From the NCBI RefSeq assembly GCF_003334405.1, contig NZ_QOWM01000011.1: 64,000 nt of DNA. One strand, written 5' to 3'. The notes beneath the pieces were generated by a model, which had not been told where the DNA came from, searched no databases, and saw only the letters and a list, made by a program, of their open reading frames with translations. The DNA comes from Escherichia coli (GTDB lineage: Bacteria; Pseudomonadota; Gammaproteobacteria; Enterobacterales; Enterobacteriaceae). Positions 48,434 through 53,804 of the stretch are shown piece by piece (position 1 is the stretch's first letter; each line of letters opens with the position of its first letter). The position numbers and the translations under genes were made by a program.

Positions 48434-49312
48434 TTATTCATCCAGCTTCGGCTGGGGTGAGTCATCCGGGATTTTGACATGAACCTGAATAATACGCCGA
48501 CTGTCGGCCATCGCCACTTTGAACTGGTAACCGTCGATGTCGATAGTTTCGCCACGCGCCGGAAGATGCCCAAATGCCTGCATCACCAGACCACCGATAG
48601 TGTCGACTTCTTCATCGCTAAAGTGGGTGCCGAACGCTTCGTTGAAGTCTTCAATGGAAGCCAGTGCGCGTACGGTCCAGGTATGACGACTCAGCTGACG
48701 GAAGTCGATATCATCTTCTTCGTCATACTCGTCTTCAATCTCACCAACAATCAGTTCCAGGATGTCTTCAATGGTCACCAGACCGGAAACCCCACCGAAT
48801 TCGTCAATAACGATCGCCATGTGGTAACGCTGAGAGCGAAACTCTTTCAGCATCCGGTCTACGCGCTTACTTTCAGGAACGACAACCGCCTGACGTAACA
48901 CTTTGTCCATGCTGAAGGCTTCAGCATCGCTGCGCATAAACGGCAGCAAGTCTTTCGCCATCAGAATCCCTTCAATGTGATCTTTGTCTTCGCTAATCAC
49001 CGGGAAACGTGAGTGGGCGGACTCGATGATGACATCAAGACATTCGTCCAGCGTCTGGTTGCGTTTCAGGGTAATCATCTGGGAGCGGGGGATCATGATG
49101 TCGCGAACGCGTTGGTCTGCGATGTCCATCACCCCTTCGAGCATATCGCGCGTATCTTCGTCGATAAGGTCGTTCTGCCCGGAATCACGGATCAGCGCCA
49201 GCAGTTCGTCACGGTTTTTCGGTTCACCGTGGAAAAGTTGGCTGAGTAACAGGGAGAAAAATCCCTTCTTGTTGCTTATCGTGTCACTACTGTGTGAATT
49301 GTCGTCGCTCAT
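48434..49312 (-). CDS. corC: CorC/YbeX-family protein (CBS pair and transporter-associated domain)
   Basis: 292-aa ORF recognised as CorC; ybeZ-ybeY-corC-lnt context. Confidence 0.9.
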
Positions 49313-49401: not shown

Positions 49402-49869
49402 TTATTCTTTCTCGGCAATGTACGGATCCTCATAGCCCAGAGCAAGCATAATCTCTGTTTCGAGGGCTTCCATTTCTTCTGCTTCGTCATCTTCGATGTG
49501 ATCGTAACCTAACAAATGCAGACTGCCGTGCACCACCATATGCGCCCAGTGCGCCTCCAGTGGTTTGCCTTGCTCCTGAGCTTCCTTCTCAACCACCTGA
49601 CGGCAGATAACCAGATCGCCCAGTAGCGACATTTCCATGCCAGGCGGCACTTCAAACGGGAAGGAGAGCACGTTGGTCGGCTTATCCTTACCGCGATAGG
49701 TCAGATTCAGACTGTGGCTTTCGGCGGTATCGACCACGCGAATCGTCACTTCCGATTCTTCCTGAAACTGCGGGATCACCGCATTCAGCCATGTCTGAAA
49801 CTGGCTCTCTTCCGGTAACCCGGAATTATCTTCACATGCCAGTTGTAAATCGAGGATCACCTGACTCAT
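49402..49869 (-). CDS. ybeY: Endoribonuclease YbeY (rRNA maturation factor)
   Basis: 155-aa ORF with the zinc motif [11 protein letters not shown]. Confidence 0.95.
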
Positions 49870-50906
49870 TTTTGTTCCTGTTCTTCGCGCTTGCGTTCTG
49901 CTGCCAGCGCCGCTTTTCGTTTTTGTTCGGCTTCTTCCCAGGCTTCATAGGCGTTAACGATACGCGCCACCACAGGGTGACGAACCACGTCTTCGCTGTG
50001 GAAGAAGTTAAAGCTGATCTCTTCGACATCGGCCAGCACTTCGATGGCGTGACGTAAGCCTGATTTAGTATTACGCGGCAGGTCGATCTGTGTGACGTCG
50101 CCGGTGATAACCGCTTTTGAGTTAAAACCGATACGGGTCAGGAACATCTTCATCTGTTCGATGGTGGTGTTCTGGCTCTCATCGAGAATGATAAACGCGT
50201 CGTTCAGCGTACGACCACGCATATAGGCCAGCGGTGCGACTTCAATAACGTTGCGCTCAATCAGTTTCTCGACTTTCTCAAAGCCCAGCATTTCAAACAG
50301 CGCGTCGTACAGCGGGCGCAGATACGGGTCTACTTTCTGGCTTAAATCGCCAGGCAGGAAGCCCAGTTTCTCACCGGCTTCTACTGCCGGACGAGTCAGC
50401 AGAATACGGCGAATTTCCTGACGCTCCAGGGCATCAACTGCCGCAGCCACTGCCAGGTAGGTTTTACCCGTACCCGCCGGGCCAACGCCGAAGGTAATGT
50501 CATGGTCGAGAATATTGGCGATGTACTGCGCTTGGTTTGGCGTGCGCGGCTTAATTACGCCGCGTTTGGTTTTGATATTGACCGCTTTGCCGTACTCCGG
50601 CACGCTCTCCGCGCTTTGCTCCAGTACCCGCGCTTCTTTAATCGCAAGGTGGATCTGTTCCGGTTCGATATCCTGAATCTGACCGCGCATCGGGGCAGTA
50701 TCGACATACAGGCTACGCAGAATGTCTGCCGCAGCGGTGACGCAAATCGGACGGCCGGTCAGTTTAAAGTGGTTATCGCGGCGATTGATCTCGATGCCGA
50801 GACGGCGTTCGAGCTGCTTGATGTTGTCATCAAACGGGCCGCACAGGCTCAACAGACGCGCATTGTCTGCTGGCTCCAGGGTGATTTCGCGAGTGTCTAT
50901 GTTCAA
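49866..50906 (-). CDS. ybeZ: PhoH-like ATPase
   Basis: Walker [12 protein letters not shown] track starts at ATG 50945, but a TTG at 50906 is preceded by AAGAGGA at about 7 nt and gives 346 aa. Confidence 0.8.
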
Positions 50907-51058
50907 ACCGTTCCTCTTATCTGTATGCCGCCGGAAGCTGAACATTCACCGGCCTATAAGGAAATTATTCACGCCACAGGAAAAAGGCGCAAGCATTGCA
51001 ATAAAGATGGGGATAAAGAGAGAAAAAACAAGGCCCACCGGAACGGCAGGCCTGAGAA

Positions 51059-52483
51059 TTACGGCTGATAATAACCCACGCCAAGGTCGTTTTCTTTGCG
51101 GGTACGGGCAATCACTGATTCCGGTGTTTCTGCCACGCGCAGACCCATTTCATCTTCAGTACGCACCACTTTACCGCGCAGAGAGTTCGGGTAGACGTCG
51201 GTAATTTCTACATCGACGAATTTACCGATCATATCCGGCGTGCCTTCGAAGTTGACCACGCGGTTATTTTCCGTACGCCCGGAAAGCTCCATGATGCTCT
51301 TACGCGATGTACCTTCTACCAGAATACGCTGGGTGGTGCCGAGCATCCGGCGGCTCCACGCCATCGCTTGCTGATTAATGCGCTCTTGCAGAATATACAG
51401 ACGCTGCTTCTTCTCTTCTTCCGGAACATCATCAACCATATCGGCGGCTGGTGTACCCGGACGTGCAGAGAAGATAAAGCTGTAGCTCATGTCGAAATTG
51501 ACGTCGGCAATCAGCTTCATCGTTTTCTCGAAGTCTTCGGTGGTTTCGCCAGGGAAGCCAACGATGAAATCAGAACTGATCTGAATATCTGGACGCGCCG
51601 CACGCAGTTTACGGATGATCGCTTTGTACTCCAGCGCCGTATGGGTACGGCCCATCAGGTTCAGAATGCGATCGGAACCGCTCTGTACCGGCAGATGCAG
51701 GAAGCTCACCAGCTCCGGCGTGTCGCGATACACTTCGATGATATCGTCGGTGAATTCGATCGGATGGCTGGTGGTAAAGCGAATACGATCGATCCCGTCG
51801 ATCGCAGCAACCAGACGCAGCAGATCGGCAAACGATCCGGTGGTGCCGTCGTAGTTTTCACCACGCCAGGCGTTCACGTTCTGACCGAGCAGGTTGACTT
51901 CACGCACGCCCTGAGCCGCAAGCTGGGCAATCTCAAACAGAATATCGTCGGACGGACGGCTTACCTCTTCACCACGGGTGTAAGGCACCACGCAGTAGGT
52001 GCAATATTTATTGCAGCCTTCCATGATGGAGACAAACGCGGTCGGCCCTTCGGCGCGCGGTTCCGGTAGACGGTCAAACTTCTCGATTTCCGGGAAGCTG
52101 ATATCTACAACCGGGCTGCGGTCGCCACGCACGGAGTTGATCATCTCCGGCAGACGGTGCAGCGTTTGCGGCCCAAAAATAATATCGACATAGTGGGCGC
52201 GCTGGCGAATGTGCTCGCCTTCTTGCGATGCCACGCAGCCACCGACGCCGATAATCAGGTCTGGATTCTTCTCTTTTAACAGTTTCCAGCGACCCAACTG
52301 ATGGAAGACTTTTTCCTGAGCCTTCTCGCGGATTGAGCAGGTGTTCAGCAGCAGCACATCCGCTTCTTCCGCCACGTCGGTCAGTTGATAGCCGTGGGTG
52401 GCATCCAGCAGATCGGCCATCTTCGATGAATCGTACTCGTTCATCTGACAGCCCCAGGTTTTAATATGGAGTTTTTTGGTCAT
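51059..52483 (-). CDS. miaB: tRNA-i6A37 methylthiotransferase (radical SAM)
   Basis: 474-aa ORF with the radical-SAM motif CNKYCTYC and a C-terminal TRAM domain. Confidence 0.95.
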
Positions 52484-52628
52484 CGACTTGCTCTTGCGAA
52501 ATAGTAGCCAGGAATGCAGGGCGCATAGTGTAATGCTTTGCTGCCGTTGTGACCAGTATGAGCGTTATCAGCCCTTAGGGGTAAAAATCCTGTAAACTTA
52601 AAGCATATTGCTAACAGGATGATTGACC

Positions 52629-53804
52629 ATGACAAATCAACCAACGGAAATTGCCATTGTCGGCGGAGGAATGGTCGGCGGCGCACTGGCGCTGGGGCTG
52701 GCACAGCACGGATTTGCGGTAACGGTGATCGAGCACGCAGAACCAGCGCCGTTTGTCGCTGATAGCCAACCGGACGTGCGGATCTCGGCGATCAGCGCGG
52801 CTTCGGTATCATTGCTTAAAGGGTTAGGGGTCTGGGATGCAGTACAGGCTATGCGTTGCCATCCTTACCGCAGACTGGAAACGTGGGAGTGGGAAACGGC
52901 GCATGTGGTGTTTGACGCCGCTGAACTTAAGCTACCGCTGCTTGGCTATATGGTGGAAAACACTGTCCTGCAACAGGCGTTGTGGCAGGCGCTGGAAGCG
53001 CATCCGAAAGTAACGTTACGTGTGCCAGGCTCGCTGATTGCGCTGCATCGCCATGATGATCTTCAGGAGCTGGAGCTGAAAGGCGGTGAAGTGATTCGCG
53101 CGAAGCTGGTGATTGGTGCCGACGGCGCAAATTCGCAGGTGCGGCAGATGGCGGGAATTGGCGTTCATGCATGGCAGTATGCGCAGTCGTGCATGTTGAT
53201 TAGCGTCCAGTGCGAGAACGATCCCGGCGACAGCACCTGGCAGCAATTTACTCCGGACGGACCGCGTGCGTTTCTGCCGTTGTTTGATAACTGGGCATCG
53301 CTGGTGTGGTATGACTCTCCGGCGCGTATTCGCCAGTTGCAGAATATGAATATGGCACAGCTCCAGGCGGAAATCGCGAAGCATTTCCCGTCGCGTCTGG
53401 GTTACGTTACACCGCTTGCCGCTGGTGCGTTTCCGCTGACGCGTCGCCATGCGTTGCAGTACGTGCAGCCAGGGCTTGCGCTGGTGGGCGATGCCGCGCA
53501 TACCATCCATCCGCTGGCGGGGCAGGGAGTGAATCTTGGTTATCGTGATGTCGATGCCCTGATTGATGTTCTGGTCAACGCCCGCAGCTACGGCGAAGCG
53601 TGGGCCAGTTATCCTGTCCTCAAGCGTTACCAGATGCGGCGCATGGCGGATAACTTCATTATGCAAAGCGGTATGGATCTGTTTTATGCCGGATTCAGCA
53701 ATAATCTGCCACCACTGCGTTTTATGCGTAATCTCGGGTTAATGGCGGCGGAGCGTGCTGGCGTGTTGAAACGTCAGGCGCTGAAATATGCGTTAGGGTT
53801 GTAG
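52629..53804 (+). CDS. ubiF: FAD-dependent ubiquinone-biosynthesis hydroxylase
   Basis: ORF 52623..53804 (TTG in the track); ATG at 52629 gives MTNQPTEIAIVGGGMVGG with an FAD-binding GxGxxG (391 aa). Confidence 0.9.
   Translation: MTNQPTEIAIVGGGMVGGALALGLAQHGFAVTVIEHAEPAPFVADSQPDVRISAISAASVSLLKGLGVWDAVQAMRCHPYRRLETWEWETAHVVFDAAELKLPLLGYMVENTVLQQALWQALEAHPKVTLRVPGSLIALHRHDDLQELELKGGEVIRAKLVIGADGANSQVRQMAGIGVHAWQYAQSCMLISVQCENDPGDSTWQQFTPDGPRAFLPLFDNWASLVWYDSPARIRQLQNMNMAQLQAEIAKHFPSRLGYVTPLAAGAFPLTRRHALQYVQPGLALVGDAAHTIHPLAGQGVNLGYRDVDALIDVLVNARSYGEAWASYPVLKRYQMRRMADNFIMQSGMDLFYAGFSNNLPPLRFMRNLGLMAAERAGVLKRQALKYALGL

What the first reader, a model, noticed from the sequence alone, without database searches (positions are those of the whole stretch)
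50904..50945. ybeZ probably initiates at a TTG with a strong Shine-Dalgarno, not the upstream ATG
The longest ORF starts at ATG 50945, which has no purine-rich motif upstream. Thirteen codons downstream a TTG (50906..50904, minus strand) is preceded by AAGAGGA at about 7 nt. The TTG start gives a 346-aa PhoH-like protein.
Basis: partly seen in the sequence, partly recalled or inferred. Interest (0 to 1): 0.3.

Follow-up and report, generated by a model that had tools for sequence, protein, structure and literature searches.

The report
ybeZ starts at TTG: already known

Summary
The window is E. coli, and the gene is ybeZ in the miaB-ybeZ-ybeY-ybeX cluster. ATG is at 50945-50943, TTG is at 50906-50904, and AAGAGGA is at 50918-50912. 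The two starts give 359 and 346 aa.

- RefSeq/PGAP, the curated K-12 MG1655 record (NP_415193.2) and UniProt PHOL_ECOLI already use the TTG.
- Tetracycline-arrested ribosome profiling (Nakahigashi 2016, PMC4909307) gave read depths of 79/79/45 at the TTG and 0/0/0 at the ATG. Its table also flags an N-terminal peptide matching the TTG form.

My own comparison of 80 Enterobacterales species agrees.
- The TTG is present in 73 of 80, always behind a conserved GGA-containing purine tract.
- The 13 upstream "codons" show no codon periodicity. They carry frameshifting indels, or stops within 4-6 codons, in many genera.
- In the few genera that keep the ATG, changes there are almost all non-synonymous.

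One side result may be worth a look. No lineage has changed the TTG to ATG or GTG, although synonymous sites in the same gene changed about 23 times each. The weak start codon therefore seems to be selected.

Verdict: real, correctly read, already known. Interest is low.

The parts
49866..50906 (-). ybeZ coding sequence as actually translated (346 aa PhoH-like NTPase, stop included)
   Evidence: RefSeq CDS of 1041 nt starts at this position in NZ_CP025903.1 and NC_000913.3. TetRP and an N-terminal peptide flag support it. Pfam PhoH PF02562, E=1.4e-98, residues 118-321.
50904..50906 (-). TTG initiation codon
   Evidence: TetRP depth 79/79/45 here. TTG at the aligned position in 73 of 80 Enterobacterales species. 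Zero parsimony steps across 73 taxa.
50912..50918 (-). Shine-Dalgarno sequence AAGAGGA, 5 nt before the TTG
   Evidence: -6.0 kcal/mol pairing with the anti-SD, top 4.4% of NTG triplets in the window. The GAGG positions have 0.01-0.03 non-majority frequency across 73 species, while the surrounding leader has 0.3-0.7.
50907..50945 (-). 39-nt in-frame extension from the upstream ATG (50945-50943): untranslated leader, not coding
   Evidence: TetRP 0/0/0 at the ATG. No codon periodicity (variability 0.48/0.46/0.40 at positions 1/2/3, against 0.10/0.09/0.47 downstream). In genera that keep the ATG, synonymous:non-synonymous codon differences are 0-1:5-7 over 13 codons, against 12-13:0-2 over the next 39 codons. 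Citrobacter FP75 has a +1 indel, Citrobacter R56 has ATG->ATA, and Pseudocitrobacter, Pluralibacter, Pseudescherichia and Superficieibacter have a stop within 4 codons.
50964..50992 (-). Conserved promoter-like block TTGCGC-17 nt-AATAAT (sigma70/sigmaS type, inferred). The predicted transcription start is about 50957-50953, only 8-12 nt before the ATG.
   Evidence: GCTTGCGCC...TGGCGTGAATAATTTC is nearly invariant in 23 of 24 aligned Enterobacteriaceae, while the flanks vary. An RpoS-holoenzyme genomic SELEX peak lies 67 nt upstream of the TTG, at about window 50973. It was not found by the strict consensus scan, and the transcription start is not mapped here.
51005..51032 (-). Sigma32 heat-shock promoter candidate CTTGTTT-13 nt-CCCCATCT
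   Evidence: It matches the sigma32 consensus CTTGAAA-N13-15-CCCCATnT, which I give from memory. It is conserved in the alignment. ybeZYX is reported as sigma32-regulated, citing Nonaka 2006. A start near 50998 would lie upstream of both candidate start codons, so it does not discriminate between them.
51021..51053 (-). miaB intrinsic terminator (10-bp stem plus T-run), overlapping the sigma32 -35 element
   Evidence: Terminator scan.
49866..49869 (-). ATGA overlap of the ybeZ stop with the ybeY start (translational coupling likely)
   Evidence: ORF coordinates. The four-nucleotide overlap is stated.

Best explanation
ybeZ is translated from the UUG at 50906-50904. The 30S subunit is placed there by pairing of the 16S rRNA 3' end with AAGAGGA 5 nt upstream, giving the 346-aa PhoH-like NTPase [12 protein letters not shown]... 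. The in-frame AUG 13 codons upstream lies in the untranslated leader and is not used. It has no usable SD, and it is a lineage-restricted accident of Escherichia, some Citrobacter and Kluyvera. If the conserved TTGCGC-17-AATAAT block is the housekeeping promoter, the AUG is only about 10 nt from the 5' end of that transcript. What is shown: initiation at the UUG and none at the AUG (published ribosome profiling and an N-terminal peptide flag), the SD strength, and the non-coding evolution of the extension. What is inferred: the promoter assignments and the position of the transcript 5' ends.
For: Published experiment: TetRP 79/79/45 at the TTG against 0/0/0 at the ATG, an N-terminal peptide flagged for the new annotation, and the U00096.3 re-annotation at the same site. 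Annotation: NP_415193.2 and WP_001018040.1 are both 346 aa, and UniProt PHOL_ECOLI is the 346-aa sequence. SD energy is -6.0 against -2.9 kcal/mol. Comparative: TTG in 73 of 80 species with a conserved SD, and the upstream frame closed without a start codon in many genera. There are non-3n indels between the promoter block and the SD. Codon periodicity and the synonymous/non-synonymous contrast both switch exactly at the TTG.
Against: Nothing substantial. The 359-aa form is still deposited in many GenBank records, but those are automated longest-ORF calls. The N-terminal peptide sequence itself could not be read in the held supplement, only the flag in Table S2. TetRP cannot exclude very rare initiation at the ATG.
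Confidence: 0.96

Rival explanations
1. The longest ORF is the real gene: translation starts at ATG 50945 and gives a 359-aa protein.
For: ATG is the preferred start codon. The frame is open and intact in all E. coli variants sampled. Many GenBank records carry the 359-aa form.
Against: Zero TetRP reads at the ATG in three samples, and an N-terminal peptide flagged for the shorter form. No SD. The extension is absent, frameshifted or stopped in most genera and evolves non-synonymously where present.
Confidence: 0.01
2. Dual initiation: most YbeZ starts at the TTG, but a minor 359-aa proteoform is made from the ATG, perhaps only on the longer sigma32 (heat-shock) transcript.
For: Nakahigashi et al. 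found two N-termini for 5 other genes. A sigma32 transcript starting near 50998 would place the AUG about 50 nt from the 5' end. TetRP was not done under heat shock.
Against: 0/0/0 reads at the ATG. There is no SD and no conservation of the extension, so any such product would be noise without a conserved function.
Confidence: 0.03
3. The true start lies downstream of the TTG, for example at the in-frame TTG at codon 19.
For: None beyond the existence of further in-frame NTG codons.
Against: Residues 2-12 ([11 protein letters not shown]) are conserved as protein with third-position-only variation. The TetRP peak and the annotated start are at 50906.
Confidence: 0.005

Closest known systems
E. 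coli K-12 ybeZ (b0660, ECK0652; UniProt P0A9K3 PHOL_ECOLI, NP_415193.2)
   Same: The same gene. The region is 100% identical to E. coli strain 300709 over 1401 nt, and 95-100% identical matches occur in 5425 of 5426 complete E. coli genomes. The annotated TTG start, the 346-aa length and the sequence MNIDTRE... are the same.
   Different: Nothing.
Other start-site corrections of the 2006-to-2014 K-12 re-annotation confirmed by TetRP (for example caiC, ycgL, mukE, hrpA in Table S2 of PMC4909307)
   Same: The longest-ORF start was replaced by an internal or alternative start supported by ribosome arrest and N-terminal peptides.
   Different: ybeZ is one of the minority that moved to a TTG codon.
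Genes with conserved weak (non-AUG) start codons used for expression control, for example infC (AUU). Named from my own knowledge, not tested here.
   Same: A non-AUG start codon is kept over long evolutionary distance next to a good SD.
   Different: No autoregulatory or IF3-dependent mechanism has been shown for ybeZ. UUG is a standard, if weaker, start codon, unlike AUU.

Membership tests
PhoH-like NTPase family (Pfam PF02562), YbeZ subgroup | Full-length match to the PhoH domain profile | tested here: met
   PF02562, E=1.4e-98, residues 118-321, model positions 2-205 of 205. PDB 3B85 'phosphate starvation-inducible protein', E=5.5e-80.
PhoH-like NTPase family (Pfam PF02562), YbeZ subgroup | P-loop Walker A (GxxGxGKT) and Walker B (hhhhDE) motifs | tested here: met
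   GPAGTGKT and FIILDE are both read directly in the translation.
PhoH-like NTPase family (Pfam PF02562), YbeZ subgroup | Genomic context ybeZ-ybeY-ybeX with a 4-nt ybeZ/ybeY overlap, downstream of miaB | tested here: met
   The operon is described.
PhoH proper (NCBIfam NF007827 equivalog, phosphate-starvation-inducible PhoH) | Score above the curated equivalog cut-off (380 bits) | tested here: not met
   217.9 bits, below 380. YbeZ is a paralogue ('PhoH-like'), not PhoH itself.
Canonical SD-led bacterial translation initiation site | ATG/GTG/TTG codon with anti-SD complementarity 5-9 nt upstream | tested here: met
   TTG with AAGAGGA at a 5-nt gap, -6.0 kcal/mol, top 4.4%.
Canonical SD-led bacterial translation initiation site | Initiating ribosomes detected at the codon | tested here: met
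   Taken from published data, not measured here: TetRP 79/79/45 against 0/0/0.
Canonical SD-led bacterial translation initiation site | Mature protein N-terminus matches | tested here: inconclusive
   Table S2 flags 'N'-peptide found: 1. new annotation'. The peptide sequence itself is not in the text held, and TRAINSPOTTER supplements do not list ybeZ.
Canonical SD-led bacterial translation initiation site | Coding-type evolution begins at the codon and not before it | tested here: met
   The switch in periodicity and in the synonymous/non-synonymous ratio falls at the TTG. Indels and stops lie upstream.

The most novel reading that the evidence does not exclude
The UUG start codon of ybeZ is itself a selected feature. 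Outside the Morganellaceae it is unchanged in all 73 sampled Enterobacterales species, although AUG or GUG is one transversion away and four-fold sites of the same gene underwent about 23 changes, about 11 of them transversions. No conserved RNA structure explains this. Pairing a deliberately weak start codon with an invariant strong SD may cap or condition YbeZ synthesis. One possibility is initiation-factor- or temperature-sensitive initiation in this sigma32 operon. Another is setting the YbeZ:YbeY ratio through the overlapping stop/start.
Probability: 0.35. Interest if true: 0.3.

Novelty: already known. Interest (0 to 1): 0.05.

Why it matters
For the finding as written, it matters little. 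The correct start is already in RefSeq, UniProt and the K-12 reference, with published ribosome-profiling support.

Its practical value is as a reminder that the 359-aa longest-ORF form still circulates in many GenBank records. Constructs or tags designed from that form would add 13 non-native residues.

The side observation bears on how YbeZ dosage relative to its partner YbeY is set. The weak TTG codon is held fixed across an order of bacteria, and the Morganellaceae replaced the whole arrangement with a GTG start directly behind miaB. It is a small, testable question rather than a surprise.

Tried and rejected
1. **Mapped transcription starts.** I looked for a start that would exclude the ATG. 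Cappable-seq supplements hold no positions 69341x-69347x, probably because the text is truncated. The Rend-seq paper has no held supplements. Nonaka 2006 (PMC1522074) is not held. The promoter positions therefore remain inferences.

2. **Strict sigma70 consensus scan.** No site was found in 50700-51300. The conserved block has only 3 of 6 matches in its -35 hexamer.

3. **RNA thermometer or sequestering hairpin.** In E. coli, AUGUUCA (50945-50939) is perfectly complementary to UGAACAU (50905-50899), and UUCC is complementary to GGAA of the SD. I rejected this idea. The leader folds no better than shuffles (z=+1.7). RNAalifold on 17 Enterobacteriaceae gives -0.04 kcal/mol with no covarying pairs. 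The complementary segment is absent outside Escherichia and Citrobacter.

4. **Rfam.** The only hit is a sub-threshold suhB/mmgR match over the miaB terminator (17 bits against a gathering score of 41, E=0.37). I treat it as chance.

5. **Within-species variants.** 4685 of 5425 E. coli genomes are identical over 76 nt. The four variants I read carry only CGG->CGA and AGC->TGC in the extension and do not break the frame, so they are uninformative.

6. **TRAINSPOTTER N-terminomics supplements.** No ybeZ entry.

Full report
**What the window is.** The 1401-nt stretch around the finding is 100% identical to E. coli strain 300709. It is present at 95-100% identity in 5425 of 5426 complete E. coli genomes. 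The genes on the minus strand are miaB (51059-52483), ybeZ, ybeY (49402-49869) and ybeX (48434-49312).

**The observation.** On the minus strand, ATG lies at 50945-50943, TTG at 50906-50904 and AAGAGGA at 50918-50912. The longest ORF, 49866-50945, encodes 359 aa beginning MFSFRRHTDKRNG, followed by L(TTG)-NIDTRE. The TTG therefore gives 346 aa. The gap between AAGAGGA and the TTG is 5 nt, or 6 nt from the GAGG core.

I scored the pairing of positions -18 to -4 with the 16S rRNA 3' end for every ATG/GTG/TTG triplet on both strands of the window (6023 triplets).

| Candidate start | Pairing energy | Rank among all NTG triplets |
|---|---|---|
| TTG 50906 | -6.0 kcal/mol | best 4.4% |
| ATG 50945 | -2.9 kcal/mol | 30th percentile |

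**It is already the reference annotation.** The PGAP record for the identical strain annotates ybeZ as a 1041-nt CDS. Its first base maps to window 50906 (WP_001018040.1). The curated K-12 MG1655 record does the same (NP_415193.2, positions 692338-693378). An exact-sequence look-up shows that the 346-aa form is UniProt PHOL_ECOLI. The 359-aa form also persists in many GenBank records, and each form is seen on at least 1000 contigs.

**Direct experimental evidence exists.** Nakahigashi et al. 2016 (DNA Res 23:193, PMC4909307) mapped initiating ribosomes in E. coli K-12 with tetracycline-inhibited ribosome profiling (TetRP). Table S2, row 7, covers ybeZ/ECK0652.
- The new initiation site is 39 nt inside the 2006 annotation, and its codon is TTG.
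- It is identical to the 2014 re-annotation (New_2014_diff = 0).
- TetRP depth at the TTG is 79.0, 79.3 and 45.2 in three samples. At the 2006 ATG it is 0, 0 and 0.
- The "N'-peptide found" column reads "1. new annotation".
- The listed product is [12 protein letters not shown]... .

The paper explains that this table lists alternative start sites and that N-terminal peptide enrichment was used as confirmation. The peptide table itself is not in the text held, so I rely on the flag.

**Independent comparative test.** One scan of species-representative genomes returned 80 loci from Escherichia out to Budvicia, Proteus and Photorhabdus. The codon aligned with 50906 is TTG in 73 of 80, always preceded by a GGA-containing purine tract such as AAGAGGA, AAAGGA or AGAGGA.

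In several groups the frame upstream is closed by a stop after 4-6 codons with no start codon in between. These include Pseudocitrobacter, Pluralibacter UBA7423, Pseudescherichia, Superficieibacter and several Erwinia and Pantoea. An N-terminal extension is impossible in those taxa.

An alignment of the spacer in 24 Enterobacteriaceae shows indels that are not multiples of three between a conserved promoter-like block and the SD. Citrobacter FP75 has a +1 indel that puts the ATG out of frame. Citrobacter R56 has ATA instead of ATG.

Evolution switches from non-coding to coding exactly at the TTG.

| Measure | 13 codons upstream of the TTG | Downstream of the TTG |
|---|---|---|
| Variability at codon positions 1/2/3, 73 species (13 codons each side) | 0.48 / 0.46 / 0.40 | 0.10 / 0.09 / 0.47 |
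| Synonymous : non-synonymous codon differences from E. coli, in Citrobacter and Kluyvera genomes that keep the ATG in frame | 0-1 : 5-7 | 12-13 : 0-2 (over the next 39 codons) |

Upstream, only the SD stands out, with 0.01-0.03 variability at its core.

**The surroundings.** The 152-nt miaB-ybeZ spacer contains three elements.
- The miaB terminator lies at 51053-51021.
- A CTTGTTT-13 nt-CCCCATCT element lies at 51032-51005. It fits the sigma32 consensus as I remember it. ybeZYX is reported as sigma32-regulated.
- A second, almost invariant block, TTGCGC-17 nt-AATAAT, lies at 50992-50964.

A genomic SELEX peak for RpoS holoenzyme lies 67 nt upstream of the TTG, which is on the second block. 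Reg-Seq lists one repressor-type site in the ybeZ promoter. If the block is a promoter, its transcript would start about 8-12 nt before the ATG. That would leave no room for ribosome recruitment there. This step is an inference, because I could not find a mapped 5' end.

The leader has no significant structure (z=+1.7), no conserved structure and no credible Rfam match.

**The protein.** The PhoH domain PF02562 matches at E=1.4e-98 over residues 118-321. Walker A (GPAGTGKT) and Walker B (FIILDE) are visible in the translation. The nearest solved structure is 3B85. The protein scores below the NCBIfam cut-off for PhoH proper, 218 bits against 380. That agrees with the name "PhoH-like". The start-site question does not touch the catalytic domain.

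**Noticed beyond the finding.**
- **The TTG is held fixed.** On a neighbour-joining tree of 73 taxa, all three bases of the start codon show 0 parsimony steps. The 84 four-fold degenerate sites of the gene average 22.6 steps, with a minimum of 5. They average 11.5 transversion steps, and none has 0. T->A or T->G would still give a start codon, so a neutral site would be expected to have changed several times. No conserved RNA structure covers the codon. The weak codon therefore appears to be selected. The purpose is unknown; dosage relative to YbeY through the ATGA stop/start overlap is one guess.
- **Morganellaceae differ.** In the seven Morganellaceae-type loci (Xenorhabdus, Photorhabdus, Moellerella, Proteus and one metagenome-assembled genome), the TTG is gone. 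A GTG 5-6 codons upstream, preceded by AGAGA or AAGGA, is the likely start. In the five of them that I aligned, the miaB stop lies only about 10-25 nt before it, so the separate promoter region is absent.
- **Yersinia has a duplication.** A tandem duplication of a GTGACCyAGAGrAAC unit gives a GTG behind a strong SD and the TTG behind a weakened one.

**Verdict.** The result is already known and already in the reference annotations, so interest is low.

Noticed in passing
window 50904-50906 (-); loci L003-L082: The TTG start codon shows 0 parsimony steps in 73 Enterobacterales species. Four-fold sites of the same gene average 22.6 steps, 11.5 of them transversions, and none has 0. No lineage has ATG or GTG at this position, so the weak start codon looks selectively maintained.
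   Followed up: partly
L070, L074, L076, L078, L079, L081, L082 (about 15-40 nt upstream of the match start): Morganellaceae-type loci lack the TTG (TCA, CCA, TCG or GCA instead). They have a GTG 5-6 codons upstream behind AGAGA or AAGGA. In the five loci I aligned, the miaB stop codon lies only about 10-25 nt before it. There is therefore no intergenic terminator or promoter region, and ybeZ is presumably co-transcribed with miaB.
   Followed up: partly
L059 and L067 (Yersinia), about 1165-1203: A tandem duplication of a roughly 15-nt unit, GTGACCyAGAGrAAC, gives a GTG 6 codons upstream behind a strong AGAGGAA and the TTG behind a weaker AGAGAAA. Either or both could be used.
   Followed up: no
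window 50964-50992 (-): The block GCTTGCGCC...TGGCGTGAATAATTTC is nearly invariant in 23 of 24 aligned Enterobacteriaceae and reads as TTGCGC-17-AATAAT. It coincides with a published RpoS-holoenzyme SELEX peak. It is probably the housekeeping or stationary-phase ybeZ promoter, but no mapped transcription start could be retrieved.
   Followed up: partly
window 50899-50945 (-): AUGUUCA (containing the unused AUG) is perfectly complementary to UGAACAU (overlapping the UUG), and UUCC is complementary to GGAA of the SD. This would sequester the start site, but it is not conserved outside Escherichia and Citrobacter, and the leader folds no better than shuffles. It is probably chance.
   Followed up: yes
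L033-L072 (Erwiniaceae, Yersiniaceae and relatives), about 10-25 nt upstream of the SD; window 50929-50952 (-): A small stem just 5' of the SD appears in many genera: GGCC or GGTC, a loop, then GGCC or GACC, with apparent covariation (Rahnella GGTC/GACC, Rouxiella and Acerihabitans GGCC/GGCC). E. coli has GCCGG-N14-CCGGC, whose loop holds the unused ATG. It may be a 5'-proximal stabilising hairpin. This was not tested statistically.
   Followed up: no
public protein collection: The superseded 359-aa YbeZ form is still present in many GenBank and ENA records, on at least 1000 contigs, alongside the 346-aa form. Longest-ORF calls keep propagating it.
   Followed up: yes
window 52623-52631 (+): The longest ubiF ORF begins at TTG 52623, but the K-12 annotation (695101) corresponds to the ATG at 52629, two codons in. 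This is another place where the longest ORF and the annotated start differ.
   Followed up: no
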